Assembly (NCBI GenBank): GCA_024137785.1
Contig: JAHRHZ010000082.1
Coordinates: forward strand, 8,587,727 to 8,651,726
Source of the DNA: Ginglymostoma cirratum
Taxonomy: Eukaryota
Direction of reading: 5' to 3'
DNA length: 64,000 nt
Both the position numbers and the translations under genes were made by a program. Position 1 is the first letter of the stretch. Each line of letters opens with the position of its first letter. The notes beneath the pieces are model-generated. The model was given only the letters and a program-made list of their open reading frames with translations. It did no database searches and was not told the origin of the DNA. Of the stretch, positions 4,346 through 61,907 are shown piece by piece.

Positions 4346-4451
4346 CATTGTTGTGCGATACTACAAAGAGTCAAGGAAATCAAGACAAACTGGAAGACGG
4401 CAATGTTTCTTCATAAAGGAATGGAACAAAACAAGTTCTGAGTATGTAAAT

Positions 4452-4658
4452 AACAAGGTGTAGAGCTGGATGAACACAGCAGGTCAAGCAGCATCAGAGG
4501 AGCAGGAAGGCTGACGTTTCAGAAGAAAATTTTCTGAAGAAAGGTCTAGGCCCGAAACGTCAGCCTTCCTGCTCCTCTGATGCTGCTTGGCCTGCTGTGT
4601 TCATCCAGTTCTACACCTTGTTATCTCAGATTCTCCAGCATCTGCAGTTCCTACTATC
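4452..4658 (+). mobile_element. Fold-back Penelope-like insertion, family A (pLTR plus inverted partial pLTR)
   Basis: Inverted arms 4452-4520 and about 4554-4622, then a tail to CTACTATCTC. Perfect 15-bp TSD TCTGAGTATGTAAAT at 4437-4451 and 4659-4673. Hammerhead core at 4534-4561. Confidence 0.88.
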
Positions 4659-5309
4659 TCTGAGTATGTAAATGTCAGCTGGGCTAATTGATTTTGAAAG
4701 TTACAAGCACATTCATTAGCTAATTGATCAGAAGGTTCTTGTGGTTTTCTGCACTCATCACTATTGAGCAAACATTTGCAAGTAAAAGAATGTGAAATTT
4801 GATAGGAATCAGAGCCAGGAGGAGCAAGAGTGTTAAATGTGCTGCTTCAGGTTTACATGATTCAGGTTGACAACTTTTGATAGGATTACTAAACTTGATG
4901 AGTTGGCAGTTCAACTGACCACCAACACACAAGAAAAGGTTTTACTACAAGCTATATGTTTGTGCAATACACTTGCCAAGGCAGAGTTGTGTATCATAAC
5001 CACATTATTGGGAGACATGCTCAAACAACAATGATACCGAGGTTTATCAAGGAGCTAACATCCAGGTCTCAGTAACCTGCAGCAACATGAATTACCTCAT
5101 CTTAACTTTCTGTAACCCTGCAGGGAAAGATTATGCTTTTTCTTCAATGATCAGGCATGCTTTATAACTTGAAACATAATTTGAAAAAGTAGATGACTTC
5201 TACCAACATAGGCAATAGGGACTAATTTGAATAGCCCCAGGAAATGGATGGAGGGACTAAAATACACAATTAACCATGATCCTGCAAGAGAAAGGGAAGC
5301 ATGACATTG

Positions 5310-5705
5310 AGGGTCACTGTTGAATGTTTGGCTAATGTGGTCTTATAATTTAGGAGAATGGTTCCAGGGATGAGAATTTGAATTATATGACTAGATTGAA
5401 AAATCTTGGATTGTTCCGCTCAGAGAAGAGAGGTTTAAGAGAGGTTTTCAAAATGTGAGGGGTCAAGACAGTAGATGAACCAAATCTTCCCATTGATGGT
5501 AGGGATGAGATCAAGGGACACAGATTTAAAACACAAGAATCAAAGTCGACTTGAGGAAAATCTTCTTTATGCACTGACTGATTATGATCTAGAATTCAAT
5601 GTCCAAAAGGGCATTCGTGGAGAATTGGAGAACTCTCTGAAGAGAAAAGGTTGATAGGGCCATGCTGAAAACACACGAGAATGGAACAAGCTGAGTTGCT
5701 CTTTC
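5310..5705 (+). mobile_element. Degenerate CR1 LINE 3' fragment
   Basis: AGAATGGTTCCAGGGATGAG...TTATATGACTAGATTGAAAAATCTTGGATTGTTCCGCTCAGAGAAGAGAGGTTTAAGAG resembles the RMIPGM..YEERL..LGLFSLEKRRLRG motif. Confidence 0.7.
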
Positions 5706-5724
5706 AAACACAGACACCGTAGAG

Positions 5725-5827
5725 CAACAACAGAAAGTGCTGGAGAACCTCTGCTGGTTGGGCAGCATCTGTGGAAAGAGAAACAGAGTTAACCTTGAGA
5801 AATCAGTATGACTCTTCTTCAGAACTC
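5725..5827 (-). mobile_element. Old Penelope-like terminal-repeat remnant
   Basis: GGCAGCATCTGTGGAAAGAGAAACAGAGTTAAC...TATGACTCTTCTTCAGAAC is the reverse-complement homologue of 49680-49790 and contains CTGAAGAAGAGTCATA on the minus strand. Confidence 0.55.
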
Positions 5828-7130
5828 AGCATCCTTCCATGTTGTAACCATTGTTACAATCAGACGACAAGAGATAAGGCAAGTCTGCTCTGTCGGACAT
5901 CACAATTATTTCTATTTCTTTTTTAGTATGCAGCTACACTTCAAGTAAAACATTGGACAATGTTTTTCATGTTCTCAGTTTTTAAAATATACATGTCCAG
6001 TTTCAAGCCCATCCATAGCTCAGAGTGGATAGATACTAAGACTTAGCTCGATGCACGTGAGAACTTCAACACAAGATCTACAGACAGAAGATCAGCTCTC
6101 TTGACTATTCCCCTTAGAAACTTCACGGAACAAGACTTTTTTTTCAGTAGGGCTTGTTGGCACCTCCATCTGTCTTTCCACCACCACCACTACCCACGCT
6201 CCATCCTCCCCCCAGCATCTGCCTCTCACCAATTGTGATTATTGCTACCATGGGGGTGTGAAAGATACAATATTTGTGTTGGATGAGGGAAGGGTGTGAT
6301 TGGGAAATAGACTGAGTGAGAGTGTTGGTTGTTCCTTTGTCACCATTCATCTGTTCTGCTCCCCTCAGGTCCTGGATCTTTGATGTGTTGCCTCAAAATT
6401 AGAGAGACCACATTTCTGTTCCTCACTTCCTTCCTTGTCCACTTTTATCCCTACCTGCTTGATTGGAAATATTGTCTTTTTCCTTCTGTCCTTGGGAAGT
6501 TCACCTCTCTGCAGATTTTCAGATCCCATCCCAGTGAGAATGAGAGACTCAGGGAGAAATCTTCTCTCCATTTTTGTGCTTGCAGCACTTATAAATGCTG
6601 GTGAGCTGCTGGAATCCATGTCATGATATCTTTAATTGGCATTCCTTTGACAGAATGGATATGTCACACACCCTCCTGGAATGGGATGGTAATACCAATG
6701 CTTGAAGAACAAGGCTCAAGACTGACCACTCCTTCATCAATCATCATTCAGGTACCAAGCCTGCAAGTGTTCCCAATGTCCCAGCAAGGATAAAATGCAG
6801 AATACTTCACCCTTAATTTGGAAACAGACCACAATGTTTGTTGGATACAATTGAATAGTATTCTCACTACACTAGGCAAAGTGAGGAAGTAAATAATGAT
6901 AAAATAATTTTAAAACATACATCAAAATATTATCTGTATTGGAACTGAACTATCATAATCTTTTAAGTCCAGTATTTTTTTGAAGATCTTAAACTACTGC
7001 AATGTTGATATGTAATGACATTAGTCCATCAGTGTATCAGAACCATATAGGACAGACTGATGATCTACTGAGTCTTTCTTCAATAAGCTTTTTCTTAATT
7101 TTATATATGATACGTATTTTTCTCTCAATA

Positions 7131-7582
7131 TTCTTTCTTGGGATGTAGGCAACACTAGCATTACTGGCATTTATTGTCTATCCCTGGTTGCCCTTATAGA
7201 GCAGCTGAGAGTCAACCACATTGCTAGGAGCCTGAAGTTACATGTAGGTCAGACCAAGTAAGGCTGCTAGATTCTCTCGCTTAAAAGGGCATTAGTGAAC
7301 AAGATGGATTTTTACAAACACCCAGAGGGAAAAGCCTGAATTACTTAGAAATGAACAATCTGAACATTGGAGCTCCACTTTGAGGCACTGGAGACCTGTC
7401 AGACCAGCATGTGTCATTCAGTTGTTTTACTGATTTTTTTCTTCAGGGCATCAATGATAATTTTATGGTTACCTTTATATTACAGAATTAGTAGCTGAAT
7501 TTAAATTCATGTCTTGTCCACAGAGAATCAGCCTGGGCTTCTAGGATGAAAAATGACAGGCTCACTACATCATCATCTCCTC
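7131..7582 (-). mobile_element. Unnamed tRNA-derived SINE (family Z) sharing its 3' tail with the Zenon-like LINE; interrupted about 7321-7450
   Basis: Core GAGAGTCAACCACATTGCTAGGAGCCTGAAGTTACATGTAGGTCAGACCAAGTAAGG...CATTAGTGAAC is also found at 57298-57765, 31612-31792 and, on the plus strand, 8169-8415. Confidence 0.7.
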
Positions 7583-7647
7583 AAAAACAGTCACCCTATC
7601 TCTAGAATTAATGTCAATTAAGATGTCAGTCACCTGGATAATGTGGG

Positions 7648-7860
7648 GATAGCAAGAACTGCAGATGCTGCAGTCAGAGATAACACAGCACGGAGCTGGA
7701 AGAACACAGCAGGCCAGGCAGCATCAGAGGAGCAGGAAAGTTGACATTTCAGGTCAGGACCCTTCTTCTGAAGAAGGATCCTGACCCAAAACGTCAACTT
7801 TCCTGCTTCTCTGACGCTGACTAGCCTGCTGTGTTCTTCCAGCCCCTTAGTGTGTTATAT
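7648..7860 (-). mobile_element. Fold-back Penelope-like insertion, family A
   Basis: Inverted arms centred on CCTTCTTCTGAAGAAGG (about 7761-7777). TSD CTGGATAATGTGGG 7634-7647 / CTGGATAATATGGG 7861-7874. Confidence 0.88.
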
Positions 7861-8168
7861 CTGGATAATATGGGTTTGTTTATCAACAAAGATGTGTACA
7901 AATTTTGAAACATTCTCAAAATTTTAATATTTGGAAGAAGCAAAGGTAGTATTAATCATAAAAGTAAATTTCCATTGAATAAATGTGTGAATACATCCAT
8001 CAAAATGCACTCATTTCTTTTCAAAATGATTTGTTTCGCATCAATAGGATTGTTGGCTTTTCATCACTAAAGTCATATTAGCAGACAAACATTTTTTCAC
8101 CGCTGGTAAAAGAGTTGCAATCATGGTAATTTTTCTGTGACAGTGACATAATTTATGTTAAAATATTT

Positions 8169-8415
8169 GCACAGTAGTTTTCATACTGGGCTAGCGACCT
8201 AGAGTTCATGAGGCTAAATCCCACCATGGCAACTGAAATTCAATTCGGTAAATCTAGCAAATTGTGAGCTGGCACCAGAAACAATGATCATGAAAGCGGC
8301 TGGATTGTCATAAAAACCGAATTGCTTCCCTAATATTTTTCTGGGAATGGAACTCACCAGGCTAACCCAGTTTGACCTCCATGTAAATCCAGCCCCATAT
8401 ACTGTGGCTGCTGAA
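8169..8415 (+). mobile_element. Family Z SINE, degenerate
   Basis: tRNA-like head ...AAATCCCACCATGGCAACTGAAATTCAATT and core CTGGATTGTCATAAAAACC...CTAATATTTTTCTGGGAATGGAA. Confidence 0.6.
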
Positions 8416-9770
8416 TAACATCATAGAACAAATTTGTTGCATTGTGTCTTGAATGAAAGAAATATATTATTCCACAAATGGTCAAATTACCCTTCACGGT
8501 GCTATTATGAGGCATGTGACCTGTTAAATTTGCCTTGAAAAAATGGCAATGATCCTTTTTAGTAATGTATTAAAAATGTAAATAAACAGAATTAAAAAGG
8601 AGCAATGATTCTTCTTTTGACAGGTCCATCAATTGTTTCTTTAAGAATAGCTGCCTGGGCCAAAGGAGAAAATGGCAAAATACCATTGGCTCATTCTCAA
8701 CGCGATTCTTCTTTCCCAAGGTCTGACCTCAGATCACTTTGTATAGTTACAACACAGAGAATTGAGGACTCAAGGTTTGAAATTATTTTAATACTCGGAA
8801 GAGACAGTTAGTTTTAATCGTAAAAAAAACCCATTGTTTCTCAATGCAGTATTGCCGTGAATTGATTTCTCACTCTCAACCAAGTATTTTCAGTGGAATT
8901 TCTTGAGCAGATTTTAAGTGACCTTGTGAATATTTGCATTGTTGTTAACAGTAGGCTTACCACAGTGCCAATGGGTACGTGGCCTTTGCTTACATGCCAC
9001 TTTTCTCTCTGTGCTCATATTGTCTAATTTTACTGTGGCTGTTTCATACAAATTTAAGGAGAACTGGAATTGCTGTCCACTCATAGTTTTCCACATTAGG
9101 TCATAGAGCAGTGTTAAATGTACTTCAAGTTGGCATTAGCATTGTTCCAAATATTTCAGGGCTTTTTTTTAAAGTTTTTAAAAAAGTCATTGGAAATAAC
9201 TTGAGACCCCTTCGTGGGCCAGTATATCAACCTATTCCAATTGATTTGCCAGAAAACGGAGGTAAAATTTTATTTCATAAAAAAAACTGACCCAAATTTT
9301 CTAGCCTGAACTACACTGGACTGGAGCATGGTAAATTTAAACGTGAAAAGAATTGGTCATGCCATTTAATGAACAAACGCCCTTAATATAGCATCGGTAT
9401 TGCTTTTCTTAAAATTGAGCCCTTGAGTTAGTGGTATTATTGAGCTCACCTTAGTGTTCAAAACGTGTGAAATAGCAACAGGAAATATAAGTGTATGTGC
9501 ATGTGAAGTGAATTATGAATCCATGTCAAGAATGCAGCAGAACATGCCACCAGAATGAAAGAAATCTGACAGAATTCAATGGAATGTTGATATTTTTTCA
9601 ATTTATTTGTTGTGGGAACCCTCCTATATTGCTAAAACTGAAACTGCATTTGAGAAATTCTCAACTTCATACACATTTATAATGATAAAGTATATAATAA
9701 ATTTGACCTTTTAACTCATGAGGATTGCCAAAGGAGCTGGATTTTCAGGACACTGAAATAAAATGTGAAG

Positions 9771-10697
9771 GTAAGACCATAAGTCAGCCATTCAGTCCAT
9801 CAAAGTCTCACCATTCACTGAGACCATGGCTGATCTGATAATGCTCAGCTCCACTTTCCTGCCTTGCCCCATAACCCTTGATTTCCTCACTGATTAAAGA
9901 TCTCAGACTTCGATAAACTTAATGACCCAACCTGCAAAGCCCTCTGCAGGAAAGAATTTCACAGATTCATTACACTCTGAGAAGAATTCATTCTAAGCTC
10001 TGTTTTAAATGGGAAACCCCTTACTTTGAGATTAAGTCTTCTGGTCCAAGTCTCTCCCACTAGGCAAAACAACCTCACTGCATCTACCATGTCAAGTGCC
10101 CTCAGAATTTTATATTCTTCAATAAGGCCCACTCTTCTCTTAAACTCCAGTGAGTACAGGCCCAAGATACTCAACCTCACCTTGCAGGAAAATCCCTCCA
10201 TTCTCGGGATCAACCTCGTGAACCTTCTCTATACTGCCTCGAATACCAATATATCTTTTCTTTGATAAGGGGACCAAGACAGTTCACAGTATTCCAGATG
10301 TGGTCAGACTAGAGCATTGTATAGTATTAGCAAGACCTCCCTATTTCTACACTGCATTCTTTTTGATATAAAGGGAAACAGTTCATTTGCCTTTCCTATT
10401 ACCAGTGAACTTCCATGCTAGCTTTATTTGTGATTAATAATGAGGACTCTCAACCTCACTGTGCTGCAGCTTTCTATAGTTTTCGCCATTTAAATAATAT
10501 TCAGCTCCTCTATTCTTCCTGCCAAAGTGCATGATCTTACATCATCCCACATTATAATCCAACTGCCAAGTTTGTGCCCATTCACTTAACCATTCTATGT
10601 CCCATAGCAGACTTTTTGTGTCATCCTCATCACTTGCTTTCCCATTCTTTTTGTCATCTGCAAACTTGGCAATAGTAGATTCATTTTCATCATCCAA
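9771..10697 (-). mobile_element. CR1 (HER1-like) LINE, 5'-truncated, about 0.9 kb
   Basis: ORF 9959-10213 (MIPRMEGFSCKVRLSILGLYSLEFKRR) is a CR1 ORF2 C-terminus. The FADD motif appears as TTTGTCATCTGCAAACTT near 10650-10667. CTTATGGTCTTA-type tail. Confidence 0.88.
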
Positions 10698-10872
10698 AGC
10701 AGGCAGCATCTGCAGACACATGAATTAATATTCTGCCTGTTGACCCTTCATCAATAATGAAAGAAAGACATGCAGACCTGCATATTAATATAACCAAAAC
10801 AAGAGGAGGGGAACATATCTCGAAAAGAAAACTCCAAAAACCCCAAATTATCTGACTGTATTAATTCGCCTA

Positions 10873-11982: not shown

Positions 11983-11987
11983 AACAC

Positions 11988-13330: not shown

Positions 13331-14762
13331 CTACAAACCCCACAACTGACAAAATTAAAATAAAGGTGAAGACCCATATGCCTACTCCATGACCTGAACC
13401 TAAAGCTGTGTTACAACCAGGTGAGGAGTAGTCCATGGCGCTCATCCCTTTTTTAACTAGGTGGGTCACGACATTTTTTTTGATTGTGTGTGGAAACTTC
13501 CAGGGGTCTGAATGACAGCAGCTATGGTGGGATGTGTGGCAGAATCAGGCAACAAGTGCAGCATGGCCCACTTTTTATGTGTTTGCAGCTGTCATGTGGT
13601 CCACTTGCTTGTTCAGGACCATTGTACCTAGCTGAACTTTATATGTCACTGGACCTGACCTTGCGTCGACCGTGCCTCTTACCAATGCAGGGTCATTCCC
13701 ATGGTTCCTACACCAAACTTTGCCTGCTGAAGTAAACTGTCTATCTGGCTTAGAAGACTCTCATGTCTAGCATTGCAGTTTCACCTCCCCACCAAACCGC
13801 ACCCCCACACCCCCCCCGCCCCCTGGTCCGGGGAGATCAGGTATAAGCTGGTGCGGAGTCTTCTCCCCATTTACAACTCTGCTGGAGCTATCCCTGTAGT
13901 TGTATGAGGGGTGGTCCTGTAATCAAATAGGAACTGGGACAGTTTGGTTTCTAGTGAAGCTGTAAGGCTGTTTCTTTAAGCCTGCCTTCAAAGTTTGGAC
14001 TGTTCTTTCTTCCAGACCATTGGATGATGGATGATTTGGACCTGTCCTTATATGTTGAATTCCATGTGACTTCCCTGCTGTTAAAGGATGGCCCGTTATC
14101 TGTGAGCAATATTTCTGGGAGTCCATGTGTTGCAAAATCTGCACACAGTTTTTCTATTGTCATCCTCATGTGTGACGAATGAGCTCCTTGCACATCCAGC
14201 CACTTTGAGTTGGCATCCACAGTGACTAAGAACACTGTGCCCGAGAAAGGACCTACATTGTTTACATGGAACCGAGTCCAGGGTTTACCAAGCCATTTCC
14301 ATGAAAGTGGGGGAGCTGCTTGTGGTAATTTTTTCCTTGTTGACACCCTCTCCCATCAAAGCAGCTACATCAGCATCCAATCCTGGCCACTAGACATAAT
14401 ATCACACCAACATCTTCATTTTGGAAACTCCTGGATTGCCCTGGTGGAGTTCAGCCAGTATTTGGTGATGACCTGTGCTCGGAACAATCACTCTTGCTCC
14501 TCATAATAATATGCCATCCTATACTGTAATCTGGTCTCTCCATGTCCAAAAAGGTTTCAGTTCTGGTTGCAATAGTGCTTTGGTTTCCCCCATTACCACC
14601 AGCTCTTTCAGTTTTGTCAGGACCAGATCCTTCCGTGTCCTAAGTCTGGTATTGTCAACTGTGACTGGAAAGGTGTCCAGAAAATTTAATCCCATCACGG
14701 ATACTTCCAGCAGCGGTACCGCCAGTGGTGTATCCAACAGCGGGAGTGAATGCCCTGGACCG

Positions 14763-16747: not shown

Positions 16748-16749
16748 CC

Positions 16750-24820: not shown

Positions 24821-25148
24821 GGCAACACGGTGGCTCAGTGGTTAGCACTGCTGCCTCGCAGCGCCAGGAACCTAGGTTTGATTCCAGCCTCAGACGACTG
24901 TCTGTGTGGAGTTTGCACGTTCTTCCCATGTTGGCGTGAGTTTCCTCCGGGTGCTCTGGTTTCCTCCCAAAGTCCAAAGATGTGCAGGCTAGGTGGATTG
25001 GCCAAGCTAAATTGCCTGTAGTGTTCAGCGATGTGTAGCTTAGGTGGGTTATAGGGGGATGGGTCTGGGTGGGATACTCCAAGGGTTGGTGTGGACTTGT
25101 TGGGCCAAAGGGCCTGTTTCCACATTGTAGGGATTCTATGATCTATGA
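24821..25148 (+). mobile_element. HE1-like SINE, full length and young
   Basis: GGCAACACGGTGGCTCAGTGGTTAGCACTGCTGCCTCGCAGCGCCAGGAACCTAGGTTTGATTCC head. Core GTGTGGAGTTTGCACGTTCTTCCC...TCCAAAGATGTGCAGG. Tail GATTCTATGATCTATGA. Confidence 0.92.
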
Positions 25149-34355: not shown

Positions 34356-34791
34356 TTTTTATCTGAACACAGTCACCAGGTAACCCAATACTTCATCGGA
34401 GGTCTCAAACAGATGCCCTTTGAGTGTAAAAAAATGATCAACCTGTTTCAGAGGCCTATATTTTGGCAACATCTACAAGGCTTGTGACTTTGTAATGAAT
34501 GCCTTCTCCCTGACCTCCATATTGAAGGTTTAGGCACCCATTCAGGACCTAGAAGTAGTGTGGTCATACATATAAACTATCAATTCTCTCATATGATGCA
34601 TCATAGACCAGCAGAAATGGCAGCCACATTGCTTACTCTCAAGTATCCCCTCATGTTTCACTATGAACAGTTGCTAAAAGCTACAGTAGACAAGGTCACA
34701 GTAATTCACCTCCAGTACTTTATAGAAAGACATTAGATTTTCCATCAGAGGCAATTATTTCAGAATTTAAAAGCCTCTGCTTTATATATAG

Positions 34792-35706
34792 GAGGCCAGG
34801 CAGCATCAGAGGAGGAGGAAAGTTGATGTTTCAGGTCGGGACTCTTCTGCAGAAATGGAGTGGGGGAAGGGAGCTCAGAAATAAACAGAGAGAGGAGGGG
34901 CGGGGCTGGGGAAGGTAGGTGGGATGGTGACATGTGAGTGCAGGTAGGTAGTGGTGGGGATTGGTCAGTGAGGTGGGAGGAGCAGATAGGTGGGAGAGAA
35001 GATGGACAGGCCAAGGAGGCGGGGATGAGAGGAAGGGTTGGTCATGGGATGAGGCTGGGGGTGAGGAGATTTTGAAACTGGTAAAATCCATATTTAGGCC
35101 ATTGGACTGTCAGCTCCCAAGACGGAATATGAGGTGCTGCTCCTCCAGTTTGTGGGTGGTGTCATTGTGACACTGGAGGAGGCCCAGGATGCACATGTCA
35201 CCCAGGGAGTGGGAGGGGGAGATGAAATGGTTCCAATGGCCTAAATATGGATTTTGCCAGTTTCAAAATCTCCCCATCCCTAGCCTCATCCCATGACCAA
35301 CCCTCCCTCTCATCTCCACTTCCTTGACCTGTCCGTCTTCTCTCCTACCTATCCGCTCCTCCCACCTCACTGACCAACCCCACCATTGCCTACCTGCTTT
35401 CACCTATCGCCATCCCACCTACCTCTCATCCCCTCGTCCTTGATCTGTCTGTCTTCTCTCCCACCTATCTGCTCCTCCCAGTTCACTGACCAACCCCCAC
35501 CATTGCCTACCTGCACTCACTATCACCACCCCACCTACCTTCCCCAGCTCCACCCCTCCTCTCTCTATTTATTTCAGAGTCCCCTATCCCTCCTCCATTT
35601 CTGAAGAAGGGTCATGACCCGAAACGTCAACTTTCCTGTTCCTCTGATGCTGCCTGGCCTGCGGTGTTCCTACATCTCCACACTGTGTTATCTTAGTTCT
35701 TACTAT
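34792..35706 (+). mobile_element. Long fold-back Penelope-like insertion, family A, including GIY-YIG C-terminal sequence
   Basis: Inverted arms 34792-35104 and 35234-35660. TSD CTCTGCTTTATATATAG 34775-34791 / CTCTGTTTTCTATATAG 35707-35723. Homologous to 50896-51409. Confidence 0.88.
35601..35628 (+). ncRNA. Minimal type-I hammerhead ribozyme core (PLE-associated)
   Basis: CTGAAGA-A-GGGTCATGACCC-GAAACGTC: intact CUGANGA and GAAA boxes, stem II, loopless palindromic ACGU stem III and a GUC triplet. Confidence 0.72.
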
Positions 35707-36136
35707 CTCTGTTTTCTATATAGCTGAGACACGACAGTGACCATATCAACCTTATAAAAAATGTTAACGTAATTACACTCATCATTCTTATTGGCAAATC
35801 ACATCAGGCAGCTCTTTTTTTTTTGCAGCTTCCTCTCAGTGCTCAATTTAATCAAAATCTCTGTTCTAAATCACAGTGGCAATCATTGCAATGTGAGATC
35901 CTGTGCACCATAAAATTCCCTCAAGACTTCCTCAAGGCGCTGTGAGCTTGGCGGTAACTGGTTACAAAAATGTACAGCCAAACTTCCCTCAGGAAGTTCC
36001 TTCAATTTTCTCCTACCTGATTTTATTGTATAGTTGTTCTAATTATTGCAACATAAAAATAACAAAATTCACAAATATCATGATATCTGAGAGTATAATT
36101 TAACAGACCAAAATTAGCCCACAACAACGCAAAGAA

Positions 36137-50895: not shown

Positions 50896-51409
50896 GAGAT
50901 AGCAAGAAATGCAGATGCTGGAGACAGAAATAGCGAAGTGTGGAAATGGAGGGACACAGCAGGCCAGGCAGCATCAGGAAAGTTGACGTTTCAGGTTGGG
51001 ACCCTTCTTCAGAAATGGGGAGGGGGAAGAGAGCTGGGAAATAAATAGAGAGAGGAGGGATGGAGCTGGAGAAGGTAGGTGGGATGGCGATAGATGAGTA
51101 CAGGTAGGGAGTGGTGGGGATTGGTCAGTGAGGTTGGGGGGTGGATCGTTGGGAGAGAAGATGGACAGGTTGTGTCAAGTCAAGGAGGTGGGGATGAGAG
51201 GGAGGATTGGACATGGAATGAGGCTGGGGATGGGGAGACTTTGAAGCTGGTAAAGTACACATTTAGGCCATTGGGTTGTAGGTGGAATAGGAGGTGCTGC
51301 TCCTCCAGTTTCCAGGTGGCGTCATTGTGACACTGGAGGAGGCCCAGGATGGACATGTCACCCAGGGAGTGGGAGGGGGAGTTAAAATGGTTCACGACTG
51401 GAAGGTGTA
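50896..51409 (-). mobile_element. Penelope-like element, family A, 5'-truncated (GIY-YIG C-terminus plus pLTR)
   Basis: Peptide LPVVNHFNSPSHSLGDMSILGLLQCHNDATWKLEEQHLLFHLQPNGLNV (PVA.HFN...R...E..LI..L..P.GLN signature). It runs into the same terminal repeat as the fold-back units. Hammerhead core on minus at 50985-51012. Confidence 0.88.
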
Positions 51410-51439
51410 GTTTAAGTTTAAGTTTTAAATTTAAGTGTG

Positions 51440-52225: not shown

Positions 52226-52979
52226 TGTACGCATGCCTCCTGAAGACTGCTTCAGGTTTGCCAACAGCTGGCATCAGGATGGGTGGGGTACTGAACGTAA
52301 GCCCCCTAACTTGCCTCAGACCACATCGCCCCAAATGTCTCATGAACTTTACATCACGATTCACATCCCACCCCCAATGACATTTGACAAGGCTTGCAGG
52401 CCTTTGGTGATCCTGGGCCTCAAACAGAATTGCTGTCAGCTCTCATCACACTGGACATTCCCCCTCCACCAACCCTGAGAACCTAGGAAAAGCCCCAAAG
52501 GTGCCCACCTAAGTGCCTGAAAGATAATTAACACAGTGGAACTGATGGGGGTCCTGCACAGATTCTGACTCTTTAGCGAGACCCCAGTTATCAATTGAAT
52601 CCTGCTGCTCGTGGAGACAAAGGCATCCCAGTACCAGAACTATCTCAATTTCCTTCGATTTAAATCAATGGAAAAGAAACCACCCAGTAGGTTTTGTCCT
52701 TTCTGCGCTGTGTTCTGATGAAGCTTAAAGCCAAAGAGGCAAAAATTGAACATCTGCCCCAAGCTTTCTAGAACTTTATGGCCTTCACTGTCCCCAGATT
52801 ATCCGTGCAGTGAAAAATTGTGGTATATTGCATTTGCAAGTTTTAAAACATGGTATAAAAGATGCTACAACATTCCTATTTTGACACAGATATTAATTCC
52901 AGACAGAAAACTTCTGAATTTTAAAACCATATCCACTGCTACAAGCCACATCAATTAAAAAAATTATATTGCTTGCTGA

Positions 52980-53113
52980 GAGATAGCAAGAACTGCAGAT
53001 ACTGGAGTCAGGGATAACACAGTGTGGAGCTAGAGGAACACAGCAGGCTAGGCAGCACCAGAGGAGCAGGAAAGTTGGTGTTTTGGGTCGGGATCCTTCT
53101 TCAGAAATGGGTC
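52980..53113 (-). mobile_element. Single-arm Penelope-like pLTR insertion, family A
   Basis: GAGATAGCAAGAACTGCAGAT...CCTTCTTCAGAAATGGG. Perfect TSD ATTGCTTGCTGA 52968-52979 / 53114-53125. Confidence 0.85.
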
Positions 53114-53282
53114 ATTGCTTGCTGATGTCTTCTGAAGATTTTTTTAAAGAAACTCCTGGTTTGTTGATCTCACTGTGACCTGTTTTGGGTCAGGATCCTT
53201 CTTCAGAAATGGGTCATTGCTTGCTGATGTCTTCTGAAGCTTTTTTTAAAGAAACTTCTGATTTGTTGATCTCACTGTGACC
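53079..53282. repeat. 102-bp tandem duplication
   Basis: 53079-53180 and 53181-53282 are ungapped copies with only a few substitutions. Confidence 0.92.
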
Positions 53283-53926
53283 TTCTGCTCTGTGAAACTA
53301 GCGGAACTGTCCAGAAAATACAAGGTACCTTTTTGCCCTTGGTTTAACATTGCTTCATAATATCCCTGCATGCCATCTAAAAGGCCCACACCCACTATAG
53401 CAAGTATTATCAGGAGGTAGTATAGGGACTTCTTACATCAACAGTTCCCTGCTTCTGGAGGTTGGTGTTCTGAAAGAATGAATGGGTGAAAATCCAGCCC
53501 AATGGCCCTTGGCGTAAGTTTATGATCCCAAATCTATTTTCAGCTGTAAAGCACTTGAGTATTTTTTAATCAACAGGAGGGTTGCTTTATGTGTGTCATT
53601 TTTGTCAATTTATATTTTCTGAATGTTTTATTCAAATATTAATGATACAAGTCAACACTGTATGTAGACTTAACTGTTTGATAGTAGCACCTGTCATGAC
53701 AGACAAGACAAAATTAAGAATATTCCATGCAGGAATCACAGGGTCTCACCTTGTATGACCCCACTGCAATGTAGATATTTTTAAACAACCTCTTCAAACT
53801 CAAACTGGGGGCAAGTGTGACTTGAATGTGAACCTTCTGGCTCTGAGGTAGGGAAGATACCATTGTGTTACGAAAGCTCTGATTTCATTTCTTGAGTGGG
53901 ATTCGACCTTGGAGCTTCTGATTGGG

Positions 53927-56298
53927 AGACCAAAAGATGTAGGAGCAGAAGTCAATCATTGAGTCTGCTCCACCATTCAATGAGATCATGGCATGTCTTG
54001 TATTCTTCAACTTCACTTTCCTACCTTTTCCCTACAATCCTTTGTTTCCTTACTGATTAAAAATCTGTCTATCTCAGCCTTGAATAAACTTAATGACCCC
54101 AGCTTTGACAGTCCCCTGTGTTAAAGAATTCCACTGATTAAATACTTCTGAAAGAAGAAATTCTTCCTCATCCCTGTCCCAAATGTGGGACTCCTATTCT
54201 AAGATTGTGCCACCTGGTCCTCGATTATCTCATAAAGAGAAACAACCACTTTGCATCTACCCTGTCAATTGCCCTCAGAATCTCATATACTTCAATGATC
54301 TTTCCCTTTAATCTTCTAAATTCCAGTGAGTACTGGCCAAACCTACTCAACTTCTCCCATGAGACAGTCCCTTCAGACATTGTATTAGTTTAGTGAACCT
54401 CCTCTGGAGTGCCTCCAGTGCCAGTGTATCGTTCCTTAGATAAGGGATCCAAAACTGTTCATAGTATCCCAGCTGTGGTCTAACTAGTACCTTATGTAGT
54501 TTTAGCAAAACCTCTCTAATTTATATTCCATTTCCTTTGCCAACACTAGAAGCCAACACTCCATTTGCTTTCCCTATTATCTGCTGAACTTGGATGCAAA
54601 CTTTTTGATTCATGGACAAATGCTCCCAAATCCCTGTGTTCGGTAGCTTTCCATAGTCTTTTTCCATTTTAATAATATTCAGCTCCTCTATTCTTCCTGG
54701 CAAAGTGCATAATTTCACATTTCCTACATTATGTACCACTCACCAAGTATTTGTTCACTTGCTTAAACCTCTCTATATCCTTCTACAGACTCTTTGTTTC
54801 ATCCTCACCACTTGCCTCAGCACCTTTTTTATGTCATCTACAAACGTGGCTACAACTTACAGGCTATCATCCTATACCCTCTTGTTCCAACTCTCTGTCT
54901 TCCATGAGTTAGCCAATCCTCTATCCATGCTAATATATTGACGCCATCACTGTGCGCACTTATCTTATTAAGTAGTCTAATGTGTGGTATCTCATCAAAC
55001 ACCTTCTGAAAATTAAAATATATTGCATCCACTTCTGCCCCTTTATCTATCCAGCTTGTTACCTCCTCAAGAAATTCTAGCAAATTTGCCAGGCATGATT
55101 TCCCTTCATGAAGCCATGCTCACTCTGCTTGATCATATTATGCATTTTGAAATGGTCTGCTATTAAATCCCTTATAACAGATTCTTAACATCTTGCTATT
55201 AATAGACATTAAGCTAATGGCCCTTTAGTTACCTATTATTTGTATCCTTCTCTTTTTACATAGAAATTTTACATCAGCAGTTTTCCAATCCTCTGGGACT
55301 TTTCTAGAATCTAATGATTCTTGGACGATTGCCAACAGTGCATCTAAAATTTCTATAGTTACTCAGTTTAATATCCTAGGATGCATCCCATCAGATTCAG
55401 GGAATTTGTCGGTCTTTAGCCCCACGATTTTCCCTGGCACCTTTTCTCTTGTGATAATTGTTATATTTATTTCTTCTCCTCCTTTTCTATTTCATTAATT
55501 AGTAATCTTGGAATGTTATTAGTGTCTTCTACTGGGGAGACTGATGCAAAATATTGATTCAAACCACTGACATTTCCTGGTTCTCCATTACTATTTCCCC
55601 AGCCTTGTACTCTTAGGGGCTTATGTTCAGTTTTGCTTCGCTTCTCCTTTTTATATATTTGATAAAACTCCTGCTATCCATCTTGATAATACTTGTAAAT
55701 TAACTCTTAAAGATTATTTTTTCCCTCTTTATAACTTTTTGATAACCTTCTGTCGATTTATTAAACTTCCCCAATCCTCCGCTTATCTTGAATCTTTCCC
55801 ACATTACATGTTTTTCTTTCAGGATGAAACTACACTTAAATTTCCTGGTTACCCATAGTTGGATCATCCCCATCCCAGAATCCTTTTCCCTCACTAACAC
55901 ATATCTTTCCAATGAGCTGTAAACTATTTTAAATGAATGCCATTTTTCCTCTTAAGTCTTTATTGCTAAACTCCTTTCCCAGTCGACTCCAGCTAGGTCT
56001 GCCGTAATTCCTTTGTAATTGTCCTTGCTTAAGCTTAACAGAACTGTTTGCTACTCAAGTTCCTCCCTCTCAAACTGCATGCTAAATTCTGTCAATGTTT
56101 CCTACGGGAACTTTCACTCTGACATCATATAATATACCTGACTCATTACGCGTCACCAGATCCAAAATAGCTTGATTCCTGATTGAATTCACAATATATT
56201 GTTATAGGAAATTGTCCCAAGTACACTCTATGAATTCTTCCTCGTGGATGCCTCTGCCAGTCTAACTATCCCATTCTACATGAAGATTAAAGTCACCC
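53927..56298 (-). mobile_element. CR1 LINE, about 2.4 kb, 5'-truncated in the endonuclease, with a deletion in the RT core
   Basis: GDFNLH (AAGATTAAAGTCACCC, about 56283-56298), LEFLEEVTSWIDKGAEVDAIYFNFQKVFDEIPHIRLLNKI...WIEDWL..RQRVG, FVDD, QVQQIIGKANGVLA and a CR1 3' UTR. Confidence 0.92.
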
Positions 56299-57297
56299 AG
56301 CAGAGATGCTACCCATTATATCACAAGAGCTCCTAGTCTGCATTATACAAATGAAACAATGAACGTATCATGTTTGCAAGTTCAATTTCTGCGGCAGACG
56401 GTACCTACTTACTTGCAACATTTTTTTGGTTTGTCTCGCTTAACATTGTGTCATGATCTCAGTTGGGTAGAATGGCCAAGATGCCATAGCGGAATCCTTC
56501 TCCCTGGTTTCTTCAACATATGCAACAAAGCGTGTACCTATCTTTTCCGGAAAACCAGAGTTTGAGATGTCCTCCAGTCTGACAGAATCATTAAACACTT
56601 CACATTTGTTTGCTTTTTATCTTACAGACGCCAGTACACCCAGCAGCTGTACACTTCCTTTACTGTTATTCCAGCCAGCTGCATACTTTCTACTTAATAT
56701 CCAAATCTATGATGCCATTGCACAGCCAGCAGCTCTCAAACAGCTGCAGGTTGCTGAATCATTAGCCACTTTTGAGGGCTATCTGCCAAAAAAATGAGCA
56801 ATGCATTGTAAGAGGAAAGACTCAGTCCTGTCTGAGAAGCTGTACAGTGTTTTGGACAGTAGCTAGTGCACATTTAATGGGATTAGGGTGTATGGTCTCC
56901 ATCTTAGCTGCTTGCTTAGAGGAAGGGGTGGATGGCAAAAGCTTGAAAGCTTGGCTTGCACTCATGTCCAAATTAAGCCAAGAATTCAATCATTTTAAAC
57001 CATCTCATTTTAATGATTCCAATGTGTTACAAGCTTACATCATTAATTTTATTGTGTATCGCTATGTTTTTTAGCAGAGGTCTCTAAATTTTAACGAAAA
57101 TGAGGCATATTTTTCCTAAACGCACTGAAGCTAAGCAGGAGGAGTATTCACATATATAATCTTAAATTGCTCTTTATGATTAAATAATAGAGTAGAGTAG
57201 ATAGTGTAATTGAACATCATCCTTGGAAACCATTCAATAAACATGTTGAAAAGATTTTTTTAACACTGTTTCCATATTAATGATCTTTAAGTAAAAA

Positions 57298-57765
57298 TTC
57301 ATTCTTAGGATGTGAACGCTGTTGCCAAGACTATCATTTATTCCCCATTGCTAATTGCTCTTGACAGATGGTGGTGAGCCACCTTTTTGAACCGCAGTGT
57401 GGGTGTAGCCTCGATACTTTTTGCTACTGTGATATTGATACAATGGCTTACCAAGCCTTTACAGAGGGCAGTTAAGAATGAACCACATTACTGTGGATCT
57501 AGAGTCACATGTAGGCCAGACGAAGAAAGATTGGCAGATTTCCTCCCATGAAGAGCATCAGTGAACTGAATGACATTTCTTGACAATCAGTGGTAGTTTC
57601 ATTATCATCATTAATGAGTGGCACTTTCTTCTCGCTTTATTCATTAATTGAAAATAACTGCCTGAAGCTGCTGTGTTGATGTTAAGAACTCATGCCTTCA
57701 AAGCATTCAGCCACAACTCAGGATTACTAATCCATTAACGTTACCATGAAATTCATTACCTCGAA
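57298..57765 (-). mobile_element. Family Z SINE with an extended LINE-derived tail
   Basis: AGAGGGCAGTTAAGAATGAACCACATTACTGTGGATCTAGAGTCACATGTAGGCCAGAC core. The tail 57298-57395 matches the LINE end at 41053-41155. Confidence 0.72.
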
Positions 57766-59175
57766 ACAATTAATGTCACTAAAATGCATGAGATGCTTTA
57801 TCGTGAAAAAGTTGTGTTTAGAATGAAGTTCAACTAAGATTTTTTTGCTGGCCTTGAATTGATGGTGGATTTCACAGTATGCAGCTGTGGTACAAAAACA
57901 GCACATTCAGCCCAATCAGTCCATGCTAGAGCTTGTGCTCCAGACAAACCTCCTCCCATCCTTCTTTAGCTATTCCCTCCTTTGTCTAATTTGTTCAGTA
58001 GAATTTGTTAGCAACTCTCAACCTCCACTCCACAAGCCTGAAACAGATTGATGCAATGCAATAGAGGTTGGCATAAATTGGCATCTTGTAGCATTGAGAC
58101 ATCTCATGATCATAGCTGACTTGAGGAACAACAAAACATTCACTTTTCATTATTTGCAGGTTTGCTACCTGGAGATCTAGCTACTTCCTAGGTCAGCCCC
58201 AGACTCCCTTTTTTTTCTCATAAACTCATCTATTCTGATCACATCTTTCTTCTTGGTCAATAGAAAATTTTATGTAGGTTATATATATAGTTCGACTACC
58301 CGCAGGAAGTTTGTGCCCCTTTCCACTGTGGATAATGAGGATTTGGTGTAATTAATCCTGGAAAATATTCTCTTTTTATCCTAAACCTGTAGGATTCATA
58401 CTTCCCAAAGTCCCCACCCAATCCCTCCACATTTGCCTGCACCTACCTACCCTTCCCACCCAGACTCAGACAGATGAGGTGAAATGTCTGGGTACTGTTA
58501 TTCACAGTCCATCCTGCATGCAGCCAGTGTGCTACTGATCATAGATAATATCCCCCCTCCTTTATTACACCCTTATCAGCCATTCTTTACAGTCTGGTCT
58601 TCTTCAAAATCCTGCTGCCTCCCAATTCCCCCCTTTTGTACTATACCCTTGTCCAGAGCATGCAGCCCCTGGTCCTGAAGATACAATGCTGAGGTTCACT
58701 GCTGCAACTTTAGCTCCTATTTCACTTCACACCCTAAACTCTTTTCTCCTTCCTCCTTATTTTCTGAGGGTAGACCCAGCCAACTGACCATGACCCATCT
58801 CTTTGACCGACATGACCAGATAGCCACAGGACAGTTGACCGCTGTCGATACATCTCTGGACCACATTAACCCAAATACTTCCCCATTCTCCAGAATGGCA
58901 AGTGGACTGACTGTGGCCTATTCGTCTTGTACTCCAGAGGCATGGACTCCCTGACTGAGAGCACCCCTCACTGTCAACATACCTGACCAGATGCCTGTCA
59001 GTGGCTAATGAGGTTGTTGACTTGCTCGCCGAGCTGGCTTGTATTAGTTCAGACGTTTCATCACCATGCTAGGTGACATCATCAGTGGAGCCTCTGACCT
59101 GACACACTGGCCACACTGCCCTACATCAAGAACATATCAGAACTGACAACAAGACTCCTAAGACCGCTAGGAATC

Positions 59176-59700
59176 ATGGTGGCCCACAAGCCCACGGCCA
59201 CTATACCACAAACACTTACAAGGATTAAAGACCCCATTCCTACAACATGCAAAACCAACATGGTTTACAAAATACCATGCAACGATTGCCACAAACATTA
59301 CATTGGACAGACAGGAAGGAAACTAGCCATCAGAATACATGAACATCAGCTAGCAGCAAAACAGCACAACGAACTCTCCTTAATATTGGTACATTCAGAC
59401 AATGAAGGCTATCAATTTAACTGGGACAAGGTAACCATAGTAGCCAAAGCCAAACATAGACATGCACAGGAATTCCTAGAGGTATGGTTCTCCACCCATA
59501 CTTCAATCAACAAACATATAGAATTCGACCTCATATACAAACCCACACAGATCAAAACCAGAAATGACACTACTCACCATAACAGAGTGGACAGTATAAA
59601 TTCCAAGTGGAGTAGAATAACATCGCCATCGGAGGCTCCACTGATGATGTCACCTAGCATAGTGACGAAACGTCTGAACAAGAACAAGCCAGCTCGGTGA
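59176..59700 (+). pseudogene. GIY-YIG endonuclease domain of a PLE (open fragment of a 5'-truncated RT-EN ORF)
   Basis: NMVYKIPCNDCHKHYIGQTGRKLAIRIHEH contains VY-CxxC-YIG, the catalytic Arg region and EH. Later HRHAQEFLEVWFS..SINK. The upstream in-frame ATLPYIKNISELTTRLLRPLG is the PLE RT-EN linker. Confidence 0.92.
59641..59674 (+). ncRNA. Minimal type-I hammerhead ribozyme core; second copy on minus strand at 59052-59085
   Basis: CTGATGA-T-GTCAC-CTAGCATA-GTGAC-GAAACGTC: perfect 5-bp stem II, intact core, predicted cleavage after C59674. Confidence 0.78.
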
Positions 59701-60131
59701 GCAAGTCAACAACTTCACCCACAACGCGAGCTACAGGTCTTTGCCAAAACTTTAGTGGCCAATGCTCTGGATCATTATGGGAGGCTGTGTTGACTTAGTT
59801 CCATGGCCTCCTAATGACAGGTGTCTCCAATGACTTCACTGAAGACTACTCCAATAACAATTTGAGACATTGCTGCCTGCTTACCGCACATGCGATGTGT
59901 TTGTCACATAAGCTGTTGGCACATGGAGCAGGTGTGAGATTGATGTAGCATACTGCAGTCCAGCGAGACATACGTCCCCCAGGCTGAGGACTGCAAGACA
60001 AGCTGCCTGGATTTCTGGGTGCTCTAATTGAATTGGCACAGCAAGGCAAGGTAAGTGTGATGGTGTGAGCAAGCTGCTAGGAGCTAAGTGAGCAAGCACT
60101 AACAGAGCAAACAAGCATGCCTGAGATGCAG

Positions 60132-60340
60132 AGACAGCAGGAACTGCAGATGCTGGAGAATCTGAGATAACAAGGTGTAGAGCTGGATGAACACAGCAGG
60201 CCAAGGAGCATCAGAGGAGCAGGAAGACTGACGTTTCGGGCCTTCTTCCTTTCTGAAGAAAGATCTAGGCCCAAAACGTCAGCCTTCCTGCTCTTCTGAT
60301 GCTGTTTGGCCTGCTGTGTTCATCCAGCTCTACACCTTGT
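60132..60340 (-). mobile_element. Fold-back Penelope-like insertion, family A
   Basis: Inverted arms about 60169-60242 and 60268-60341. Perfect TSD TGCCTGAGATGCAG 60118-60131 / 60341-60354. Confidence 0.9.
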
Positions 60341-61620
60341 TGCCTGAGATGCAGTCTGATTCAGTCTGTGAGCTAGGTGCCTGTTCCTGCAATGCAAGTC
60401 TATGCATTCTTATGGCAATAAGTGAATAGTACCAGGATAATCGAGATGGGCTGGCAGATGGCAGATGCCAATGTCGGTGGAGGAGGAGTCAGTACAGCTG
60501 TTGCCTTGTATCTACACTGAATTACGGTTTGATTGCAAGCAACATAGACGTCATTTGGATCTTGCAGTGTGCTGAATCACCAGGTACACCTTCTGGTTTT
60601 CTTGTCAAAGCTTCCTAACGTCAAGATTGTTTGACAAGCTTGAGAAAAGGGAGTCTAAATATCAATCAGCCAAGCTGTTGTATTAACAAGGAGTTTCCAA
60701 AATGTTAACCACCATCAATCAGCACCCACTGCTGCCTATTGAGAATCACACCACACCTCTTGTGAATAGTGTGAAAGGAGAAGTGAGGGATGGGCTTTGA
60801 GATGGGCTACACTGCACTTCTCTCCCATTGTTTCTTACACCCTATTTGATTCTGCCCAAACTCTTCTTAAAAAGTTCAAACTTGCATCCCCTTCTGCAAG
60901 TGGATTGGTGACTCTCCCCTTGTCTCACCTCTATTAAAACCAGAAGTGGCTGAGTTCCTGTGTCAATTTCTTTAGTTCTTACGCTCCTGACCAAACAAAA
61001 CCTATCCAGTTTTGGGGGCTAAAATTGCATTCCGTTTGCACATTTTCTGAATGATACTCAGCTATTTAAACGAAATATTGGGAGGTGTTTTTATAAGTAA
61101 TGCAGTGGAAAATATTTTCGTATTTGAAAAACACTAGAGACTTTACAGGATTGGTAGTTGCTTGACACAGACTCTGCATTGTTACAAACAGATTGCTATA
61201 GACTGAGAAATTATACGTGACCATTGGCCAGGGTTTTGCAATGGGACTGACAGAAAAACTGTCAATATTGATCATCAGTAATCCACTAGAACTGACAGCA
61301 ATTTGAAGTCTGCATAAGCGGAAAACTGTGTGGAAAACCAGAGGGCTATCAGTGATTTAAATTTCTTCCAAAGGTTTGGTATTGAGGCATGACTGTCAAC
61401 AATCACCACTCCCACTCAGTTCTCCTGTCTCTCTCTCTCATACGCAGGCACCCCAGTGAAAAATCATTGAATTGACAAGAAATTCGACACTTGCTCTGTT
61501 AGCCTTACTGTAAAAACATTAATTTCATAAGTACCACTGCACACTCTCAATTGTTCTGAAAATCTACTTTTATACTTAAGGAGTGCCAAGTATTCCACTT
61601 TATAAAATGTTGCGAATATT

Positions 61621-61839
61621 ACAGTGTGGAGCTGGAGGAACACAGCAGGCCAGGCAGCATCAGAGGAGCAGAAAAGCTAATGTTTCGGGTCGGGACCCTT
61701 CTTCAGAAAAAGGGTCTGAAGAAGGGTCCTGACCCAAAACGTCAGCTTTCCTGCTCCTCCGATGCTGCCTGGCCTGCTGTGTTCCTCCAGCTCCACACTG
61801 TGTTATCTCAGACTCCAGCAAGAGCAGTCTTACTATCTC
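61621..61839 (+). mobile_element. Fold-back Penelope-like insertion, family A
   Basis: Inverted arms 61621-61707 and 61715-61801. TSD TGTTGCGAATATT 61608-61620 / TGTTGCAAATATT 61840-61852. Confidence 0.9.
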
Positions 61840-61907
61840 TGTTGCAAATATTGTTGTGATTCAATTGAGACGGGTACACCATTAGCTCAGCACCACCTTT
61901 CCATAGC

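What the first reader, a model, noticed from the sequence alone, without database searches (positions are those of the whole stretch)
4437..61852. Dense set of miniature fold-back retro-insertions, each carrying a minimal hammerhead ribozyme core
Seen: about 200-bp hairpin units at 4452, 7648, 46929, 60132 and 61621, a longer one at 34792 and single arms at 50896 and 52980 share one terminal sequence. All but 50896 have distinct 12-17 bp TSDs. Near the hairpin centre lies CTGA(A/T)GA-A-GGG(N6)CCC-GAAACGTC. The catalytic boxes are intact at 4534-4561 (stem II weakened), 35601-35628, 47032-47059(-) and 50985-51012(-); G12 is changed to A at 7768, 60253 and 61716. Copies at 34792 and 50896 join this repeat to a GIY-YIG C-terminus, so these are Penelope-like and not MITEs. 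Established: PLE pseudo-LTRs encode minimal hammerheads with a loopless palindromic stem III thought to cleave as dimers, and 5' inverted pLTRs are typical. Inference: at about one copy per 8 kb, any host pre-mRNA crossing this region carries long dsRNA hairpins and potential self-cleaving motifs. The short units may also spread as a non-autonomous ribozyme-bearing family.
Basis: partly seen in the sequence, partly recalled or inferred. Interest (0 to 1): 0.7.

Follow-up and report, generated by a model that had tools for sequence, protein, structure and literature searches.

The report
Penelope retrotransposon hairpin stubs with ribozymes
These short DNA hairpins are broken end-pieces of a known kind of jumping gene that carries a tiny self-cutting-RNA motif; their matched ends suggest the element likely copies the front of one RNA twice, once from each side of a DNA cut, so they record how it inserts rather than being a new ribozyme system.

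Summary
Observation confirmed, with corrections: the 46929 unit spans a 400-N assembly gap, and the density (one insertion per 8.0 kb) is the genome average (7.8 kb in 603 kb sampled elsewhere), not a local cluster. The units are 5'-truncated copies of a Neptune-type Penelope-like element (RT, CxxC finger, C-terminal GIY-YIG). The hammerhead-plus-tail segment is both the element's end and the front of its ORF. 45 of 48 head-to-head pairs have exactly one tailed arm; either arm can be longer; 61 of 149 5' ends fall at -7..+2 of the CUGA box, 31 nt below a TATA-like box, and only 4 at the ribozyme cut site. An arm stopped at that pile never partners an arm reaching into the ORF (0 of 34, 7.5 expected). 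Likely mechanism: both nicked target strands prime on one RNA at two internal sites, and the cDNAs run off the RNA start. No sign of master hairpins or stub-specific alleles; G12A is CpG decay; cleavage, editing and a host gene were not shown. The kind is known, and this scan noted the shared start and two-sided copying before on other DNA of this genome.

The parts
4437..4673 (.). Fold-back insertion with 15-bp TSD (4437-4451, 4659-4673): tail-less arm 4452-4522 (-, 5' end at +20), tailed arm 4531-4661 (+, 5' end at -2)
4534..4561 (+). Minimal hammerhead core, boxes intact, G10.1-C11.1 pair broken
7634..7874 (.). Fold-back insertion with 14-bp TSD: tailed arm 7648-7772 (-), tail-less arm 7763-7863 (+), both 5' ends at about -1, overlapping at the TTCT..AGAA near-palindrome; core 7768-7795 has G12A
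34775..35723 (.). Long fold-back insertion, TSD 34775-34791/35707-35723: arm 34790-35233 (-) reaches -498 into the GIY-YIG C-terminus, arm 35233-35711 (+) reaches -370 and ends in a tail with an internal deletion
35601..35628 (+). Intact minimal hammerhead core, with TATTTAT at -34 and CCATTT upstream
46915..47575 (.). Young fold-back insertion with TSD 46915/47560: tailed arm 46932-47066 (-), assembly gap 47074-47473, tail-less arm 47474-47559 (+); arms identical over 86 of 86 bases
47032..47059 (-). Intact minimal hammerhead core (CUGAUGA subfamily)
50896..51412 (-). Single 5'-truncated tailed copy reaching -517 into the GIY-YIG C-terminus; core 50985-51012 with boxes intact; no TSD found
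52968..53125 (-). Single tailed stub 52980-53113, 5' end at -6, 12-bp TSD; core decayed (G12A and broken stem III); its 5' part lies in a later 102-bp tandem duplication (53079-53283)
60118..60354 (.). Fold-back insertion with 14-bp TSD: tailed arm 60129-60238 (-), tail-less arm 60250-60341 (+, 5' end -2); core at 60253 has G12A
61608..61852 (.). Fold-back insertion with 13-bp TSD: tail-less arm 61621-61709 (-, 5' end -2, core with broken stem III), tailed arm 61715-61842 (+, core with G12A)

Best explanation
The units are 5'-truncated insertions of a Neptune-type Penelope-like retrotransposon, and the hairpins likely form when both nicked strands of the target prime reverse transcription on one element RNA at two neighbouring internal sites and the two cDNAs are joined head to head. 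Numbering: C of CUGA = +1. Shown: the family has an RT-CxxC finger-GIY-YIG ORF; the segment from the hammerhead to the tail sits at the 3' end and also runs on into the ORF N-terminus in full-length copies; 3' ends fall at two sites (about +93 and +127); TSDs centre on 14 bp; pairs are head to head with one tailed and one tail-less arm; 5' ends pile at -7..+2. Inferred: the endonuclease nicks both strands about 14 nt apart; one 3' end primes at +127 and the other at +93 of the same pLTR copy; when the copy near the RNA's 5' end is used, the cDNAs run off the transcription start (A at -3, 31 nt below a TATA-like box) after 95-130 nt and give stubs; when the 3' copy is used, both arms can run into the ORF; ends are joined by short homologies or a few added bases. 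The template would be uncut by the ribozyme. After insertion the cores decay, mainly at CpG sites.
For: ORF and linkage: RT motifs, C-X4-C-XX-C finger and GIY-YIG in L035, L038, L043, L047 (RVT_1 E=4e-4; GIY-YIG stretch aligns with the window's second element, E=9e-5); RT copies end in the same terminus. L261 and L262 stay colinear from hammerhead through tail into the ORF N-terminus (80% column identity). Two 3' ends. One tailed arm in 45 of 48 pairs (P=1e-10 against 0.5), 0 tail-to-tail neighbours. Tailed arm reaches further 5' in 12, tail-less in 11, tie in 7 of 30 gapless pairs. Arm coupling: long+pile pairs 0 of 34, shuffled mean 7.5, P=5e-5. 5' ends: 61 of 149 at -7..+2, 3 at -8..-68, 4 at +27..+31 where 3.2 are expected; single copies pile too (23 of 68 at -4..+2, 0 at the cut site). 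TATTTAT at -34 and A of CCATTT at -3 in all three subfamilies (65 long copies). A sister family has TATATAAA at -34, TCAGTT with A at -3, and 24 of 42 5' ends at -6..+3. Arms of one unit agree at subfamily sites (A/T at +5: 0 discordant of 25; C/T at +54: 2 of 55; A/C at +44: 3 of 52). Fits PMC11167929 (both strands cut and extended, two adjacent internal RT starts bounding the tail, uncut RNA the main substrate) and PMC3846280 (pLTR plus tail hold the first codons of the ORF).
Against: No RNA 5' end was seen: the poly(A) library was unstranded and showed no pile of starts. The main family's TATA-like box has two mismatches to the recalled consensus TATAWAWR, and 4, 4 and 15 equally good 8-mers occur in 820 nt of three copies; its bases are not clearly better kept than neighbours (2.9% against 4.1% departures). 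Only 10 of 30 single stubs at the pile have a detectable TSD. Stubs of the CUGAUGA subfamily are closer to their majority than long copies (1.8% against 6.7%), which could mean a separate young stub source. L006 and L020 share a junction type and arm-specific variants (95% identical, different TSDs). 16 of 50 pairs have an assembly gap at the junction and were left out of junction tests, mostly young ones. 46% of the first 120 stretches read N. Arm positions above +13 are off by one where one reference with a 1-nt deletion was used.
Confidence: 0.68

Rival explanations
1. Short stubs or whole hairpins are transcribed from an internal promoter and spread in trans as a non-autonomous, SINE-like or retrozyme-like family from master copies.
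For: The fixed 5' end is also what a SINE-like stub RNA would give; D. virilis Penelope has an internal promoter (PMC2377424, passages). Young-subfamily stubs are very uniform (1.8% from majority). L006/L020 look related. A 6-nt shortening of stem II at the junction recurs in several units.
Against: Junctions are mostly unique (4 alike pairs among 34 parsed junctions; 26 distinct end combinations in 29 short pairs), same-arm sharing 55 against cross-arm 44 (P=0.31), stubs and long copies have the same subfamily mix (24/21/16 against 25/21/9) and no stub-specific allele. Copying a whole hairpin would need a precise stop at the far arm's end.
Confidence: 0.12
2. One cDNA folds back on itself at a palindrome and copies itself (self-priming, as proposed for Adineta Penelope), giving the inverted arm.
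For: Junctions often use the TTCT..AGAA near-palindrome or the stem II arms; both arms come from one template region; PMC3846280 reads such palindromes as self-priming.
Against: A tailed arm cannot be copied from a cDNA begun at +93, so the tailed arm would have to be first and at least as long; yet the tail-less arm reaches further 5' in 11 of 30 pairs, by up to 1.8 kb (L125). Many long junctions have no palindrome. Versions that use an antisense template are not excluded by this test.
Confidence: 0.07
3. The 5' pile is a reverse-transcriptase stall or microhomology hot spot at the edge of the hammerhead fold and the C-rich tract, not the RNA's start.
For: The pile coincides with the 5' edge of stem I and with a near-palindrome; the upstream tract is C/T-rich; no RNA start was seen.
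Against: A stall would act on any template, so long arms should often be paired with piled arms; 0 of 34 are. Only 3 of 149 ends lie at -8..-68. A sister family with a different upstream tract piles at the same place under a consensus TATA box.
Confidence: 0.09
4. Ribozyme cleavage makes the template's 5' end, or the copies are kept by the host as cleavage or dsRNA signals in pre-mRNA.
For: 58 of 120 arms spanning the core keep all core letters and three stem II pairs; core non-CpG sites depart less than matched sites in long copies (19 observed, 30.5 expected, P=0.018); fold-back junctions occur in poly(A) reads.
Against: No pile at the cut site (4 observed, 3.2 expected). CpG core sites including G12 depart at 18%. 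Stem I is only 2-3 bp with predicted pairing 0.0, and the hairpin traps the core. The mild core conservation fits selection on source elements. No host exon identified. Published minimal hammerheads cleave weakly or need the element's protein (PMC4209133, PMC11167929); 1 of 9 Xenopus dimers cleaved (10.64898/2026.07.22.740005).
Confidence: 0.04

Closest known systems
EN+ Penelope-like elements, Neptune (or Nematis) clade (PMC8557442, passages read)
   Same: Single ORF with RT, CX2-5CxxC finger and C-terminal GIY-YIG; heavy 5' truncation; partial tandems; inverted 5'-truncated copy at the 5' end; 30-40 bp tail at one end only.
   Different: Very high copy number (about 7% of sampled bases, roughly half a million insertions by extrapolation) and a large class of 100-230 bp stubs and hairpins with one fixed 5' end; clade not tested with a tree.
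Poseidon of Anolis carolinensis, PAc (PMC11167929, parts 1-2 of 4 and passages read)
   Same: Two adjacent internal RT start sites bounding the tail, downstream of the hammerhead in the ORF front; both target strands extended; uncut RNA used.
   Different: Other clade. The text read reports no difference in start site between strands and does not discuss inverted products or a 5' pile; here one start per strand is seen in 45 of 48 pairs.
Minimal type I hammerheads of metazoan pLTRs (PMC4209133, parts 1-2 of 4 read)
   Same: CUGANGA and GAAA boxes, one base between 9 and 10.1, G10.1-C11.1 pair, loopless palindromic stem III; opposite-strand pairs 100-700 bp apart and many single motifs were already reported.
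   Different: Stem II is only 3-4 bp and stem I 2-3 bp, shorter than the 7-8 and 4-5 bp given for Schistosoma.
Adineta vaga Penelope inverted-pLTR insertions (PMC3846280, passages read)
   Same: Head-to-head inverted pLTRs, TSD, tail on one arm, pLTR holding the first codons, TATA and Inr-like motifs in the pLTR.
   Different: TSD 14 bp rather than 8-10; arm-length data here favour two cDNAs over the self-priming proposed there.
Animal non-LTR retrozymes (10.64898/2026.07.22.740005, parts 1-3 of 5 read)
   Same: pLTR-derived, non-coding, type I hammerhead, many monomers.
   Different: Retrozymes are defined by head-to-tail tandem units; these are head-to-head or single, with TSDs.

Membership tests
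EN+ Penelope-like element | One ORF with RT followed by GIY-YIG endonuclease, linked to this terminus | tested here: met
   Pfam hits are weak and below curated cut-offs, all copies seen are broken
EN+ Penelope-like element | Pseudo-LTR: terminal segment repeated at the front of the ORF in partial tandems | tested here: met
   L261 and L262
EN+ Penelope-like element | Inverted 5'-truncated copy and 30-40 bp tail at one end; TSD | tested here: met
   45 of 48 pairs; tail about 34 bp; TSD in 42 of 48
Neptune clade | CX2-5CxxC finger between RT and a C-terminal EN (shared with Nematis) | tested here: met
   motif seen in L035, L038, L043, L047 translations; feature from PMC8557442
Neptune clade | Placement in an RT tree with named Neptune and Nematis members | not tested
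   no named reference RTs were fetched
Minimal type I hammerhead | Core boxes, G10.1-C11.1, palindromic stem III | tested here: met
   63 of 146 arms complete; 3 window cores complete and 1 with boxes but broken 10.1-11.1 pair
Minimal type I hammerhead | Covariation in stem II | tested here: inconclusive
   GGG/CCC is fixed within the family, the fourth pair is U-A or U-G; GAG/CTC in some sister-family copies and a wholly different paired stem in the second family were seen by eye; no formal count
Minimal type I hammerhead | Self-cleavage as dimer or with protein | not testable with these tools
   no pile of genomic or RNA ends at the cut site; Rfam gave no hammerhead hit
Non-LTR retrozyme | Head-to-tail tandem units each with a hammerhead | tested here: not met
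   window units are head-to-head or single
Non-autonomous master-copy family (SINE/MITE-like) | Recurring junction and shared diagnostic variants absent from autonomous copies | tested here: not met
   one possible kin pair

The most novel reading that the evidence does not exclude
Hundreds of thousands of stubs form an in vivo record of a twin-priming insertion step peculiar to Penelope-like elements: one RNA, two fixed internal start sites used one per target strand, and a strong-stop-like run-off at a TATA/initiator start just in front of the hammerhead, so that head-to-head inverted pLTRs arise without self-priming and without ribozyme cleavage.
Probability: 0.6. Interest if true: 0.55.

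Novelty: new member of a known kind. Interest (0 to 1): 0.35.

Why it matters
How Penelope-like elements make their inverted ends and one-sided tails is still open: self-priming was proposed from rotifer copies, and a 2024 in vitro study found two internal start sites and extension of both strands. The counts here join these: one start per strand, arms coupled to one template region, 5' ends at a likely transcription start, none at the ribozyme cut. That gives exact predictions for 5' mapping and for the existing in vitro assay. As a host-regulation or new-ribozyme finding it is ordinary. A practical side point: young hairpins break short-read assemblies (13 of 24 young pairs have a gap).

Tried and rejected
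Rfam scan at E up to 5: no hammerhead family, only hairpin-shaped miRNA models and a 5S-like piece. A TGA shared by most RT hits looked like a possible selenocysteine codon; it lies in a shifted frame that the broken query selected for: rejected. A second apparent 5' pile near -355 shrank to 3-4 scattered ends on base-level mapping: not pursued. Loose read ends next to the cut site carry the upstream hammerhead of other subfamilies and stem from a 1-nt indel, so they are not cleavage ends. A-to-I editing could not be read because reads come from many copies; the locus-specific lay gave no data, so transcription and editing of these particular hairpins remain open. An extra G from a cap was looked for at single stubs; too few had clean TSD borders. 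A 79-base own-genome search returned nothing, as the words are too common. PDB sequence search with the RT piece gave no relevant hit. The ESM Atlas look-up gave no result. Pfam on 204 of 230 open frames of 62 aa or more found only an integrase piece and one weak DUF, so no host exon; short exons would be missed. Left out of counts: 44 of 281 hits below the family threshold, 3-4 sister-family arms, arms abutting N or a stretch end, and loci L001-L050 and L171-L185 (picked by similarity) except for the junction test and as references. One search's count of tailed arms per pair had a bug and was redone; one search's core read-out was shifted for one reference and was redone.
Full report
Observation. 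Self-comparison and base-level reading confirm eight related insertions at the stated places. Seven have direct repeats of 12-17 bp; 50896 has none. Four cores have intact catalytic boxes and three have G12A, as stated. The 46929 unit crosses a 400-N gap, so it is not a measured 200-bp hairpin. Rfam gives no hammerhead hit at E up to 5. Numbering below: C of CUGA = +1, last T before it = 0, predicted cut after +28.

Setting. The window is G000:C82:8587727-8651726 of a 4.36-Gb genome; earlier scan notes call it shark, which I did not test. I took 120 ten-kb stretches at round-number places (46% of bases read N) and 40 beside readable ones. In the 116 stretches not adjoining the window (602,620 non-N bases) a profile search found 77 insertions, one per 7.8 kb, against one per 8.0 kb in the window; the family covers 7.1% of those bases. 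The window is typical in density, with about twice the average share of fold-backs.

The element. Copies found with the 50896 piece extend into an ORF with RT motifs, a C-X4-C-XX-C finger and a GIY-YIG domain, and copies found with the RT end in the same terminus. RT-finger-EN order fits the Neptune or Nematis clade (PMC8557442, passages); no tree was made. In L261 and L262 the hammerhead and tail run on, colinear, into the ORF N-terminus, whose first codons lie in the arm. The terminal segment is thus both end and front of the unit, as in Adineta and Anolis elements.

Ends. 3' ends fall at about +93 and +127, the two sides of a 34-bp tail; PMC11167929 (parts 1-2 of 4) ties the tail to two internal RT start sites. 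Of 50 head-to-head pairs in the unbiased sets and the window, 48 had both outer ends readable: 45 have exactly one tailed arm, 2 none (one of these, 34792, keeps a partly deleted tail), 1 both; no tail-to-tail neighbours were found. TSDs were found in 42 of 48, 16 of them 14 bp, against 3 of 300 controls. Of 149 readable 5' ends, 61 lie at -7..+2, 39 at +3..+63, 3 at -8..-68 and 46 further up; 4 lie at +27..+31 where 3.2 are expected. Single copies pile too (23 of 68 at -4..+2), though only 10 of 30 piled singles show a TSD.

How the hairpins form. In 30 gapless one-tail pairs the tailed arm reaches further 5' in 12, the tail-less in 11, and 7 tie. A cDNA folding back on itself cannot make a tail it never copied, so simple self-priming (PMC3846280, passages) would need the tailed arm to be the longer. 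In 34 gapless pairs an arm stopped at the pile never partners an arm reaching past -7 (7.5 expected by shuffling, P=5e-5), and the arms agree at subfamily sites. Both arms therefore come from one template region. I infer twin priming: nicks about 14 nt apart, one strand primed at +127 and the other at +93, as allowed by the in vitro finding that both strands are cut and extended.

Why the 5' ends pile. In 65 long copies of three subfamilies TATTTAT starts at -34 and the A of CCATTT is at -3. A sister family has TATATAAA at -34, TCAGTT with A at -3, and 24 of 42 5' ends at -6..+3. The second family in the window has TATAAATT at -45 and its one short arm starts near -11 (counted by hand). The TATA and initiator consensus I compare with are recalled, and the main family's box is a weak match with equally good 8-mers nearby. 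The reading that the pile is the RNA's front was already in earlier scan notes; the promoter spacing and the arm coupling are my tests of it. Poly(A) reads (run X18, unstranded, 61,888 reads laid from 12.9 million records) show fold-back joints at -6..-2 but no pile of starts or ends, so the start is not shown directly.

Master copies. Among 59 short units, 34 junctions could be parsed and 4 pairs are alike; arm-specific variants are shared same-arm 55 times and cross-arm 44 times over 1023 pairs (P=0.31). Piled and long arms have the same subfamily mix and no allele differs after 329 tests. Against this reading: stubs of the youngest subfamily are more uniform than its long copies (1.8% against 6.7%), and L006/L020, 39 kb apart with different TSDs, are 95% identical with shared arm-specific letters, by copying or by gene conversion.

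The ribozyme. 63 of 146 arms spanning the core are complete. G12 lies in a CpG; core CpG sites depart at 18%, core non-CpG sites at 2.4%, downstream sites at 3.9%. In long copies the core is mildly better kept than matched sites (19 against 30.5, P=0.018), as expected if source elements are under selection. Stem I is 2-3 bp with predicted pairing near zero; in the four gapless hairpins the core is predicted to be paired into the long stem. Published minimal hammerheads cleave weakly, as dimers or with the element's protein (PMC4209133 parts 1-2 of 4), and 1 of 9 Xenopus dimers cleaved (preprint parts 1-3 of 5). No host exon was identified, and transcription or editing of these loci was not obtained.

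Novelty. The element type, inverted ends, one-sided tail and minimal hammerhead are in print. Five full-text searches gave no paper on such stubs in sharks or on a 5' pile at a pLTR start; the library lacks most subscription papers, and I opened no supplements (the figures of PMC4209133 on vertebrate motifs and of PMC11167929 on genomic ends may bear on this; preprint supplements are closed). PMC2377424 was read as passages. Verdict: real, a new member of a known kind, with modest value as a record of mechanism, already noted by this scan elsewhere in the genome.

Noticed in passing
window 59009-59717: Second, unrelated Penelope-like fold-back copy (Penelope/Poseidon-like, label from recalled motifs): inverted 89-bp arm plus direct arm with an open 200-aa GIY-YIG frame (Pfam E=0.03), its own minimal hammerhead with a 5-bp stem II at 59641 (+) and 59085 (-), and an 11-bp TSD (10 of 11 match).
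   Followed up: partly
L250, L222, L135, L168 and others: Sister hammerhead-bearing family with 3' ends near +100 and +127, a consensus TATA box at -34 and the same 5' pile; 42 arms in about 1.08 Mb.
   Followed up: partly
window 47074-47473 and 15 other sampled pairs: Assembly gaps sit in the middle of fold-backs, mostly young ones (13 of 24 against 3 of 26).
   Followed up: partly
L006 and L020: Two hairpins 39 kb apart, different TSDs, 95% identical with shared arm-specific letters: possible copying as a unit or gene conversion.
   Followed up: partly
L182, L176, L173 (CUGAUGA subfamily): The hammerhead's AUG opens a 14-codon frame whose stop overlaps the start of the main ORF (TGATG), a possible stop-restart arrangement; seen in the sequence, not tested.
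   Followed up: no
window 45275-45386: 5S rRNA-like piece just above Rfam's gathering score (38.6 bits); pseudogene or SINE head.
   Followed up: no
window 13926-14355 (-): Decayed integrase-core fragment of an LTR-type retroelement (rve, rve_3 below cut-off).
   Followed up: no
window 90-398, 24830-25148, 45424-45719: Three copies of a roughly 300-bp SINE-like repeat, 71-80% identical.
   Followed up: no
window 9809-10670 and 53971-54850: Two copies of an unidentified 870-bp repeat, 71% identical.
   Followed up: no
window 41304-41472/42462-42630 and 47957-48080/48283-48406: Two further inverted-repeat pairs (83% and 86% identical) unrelated to the hammerhead family.
   Followed up: no
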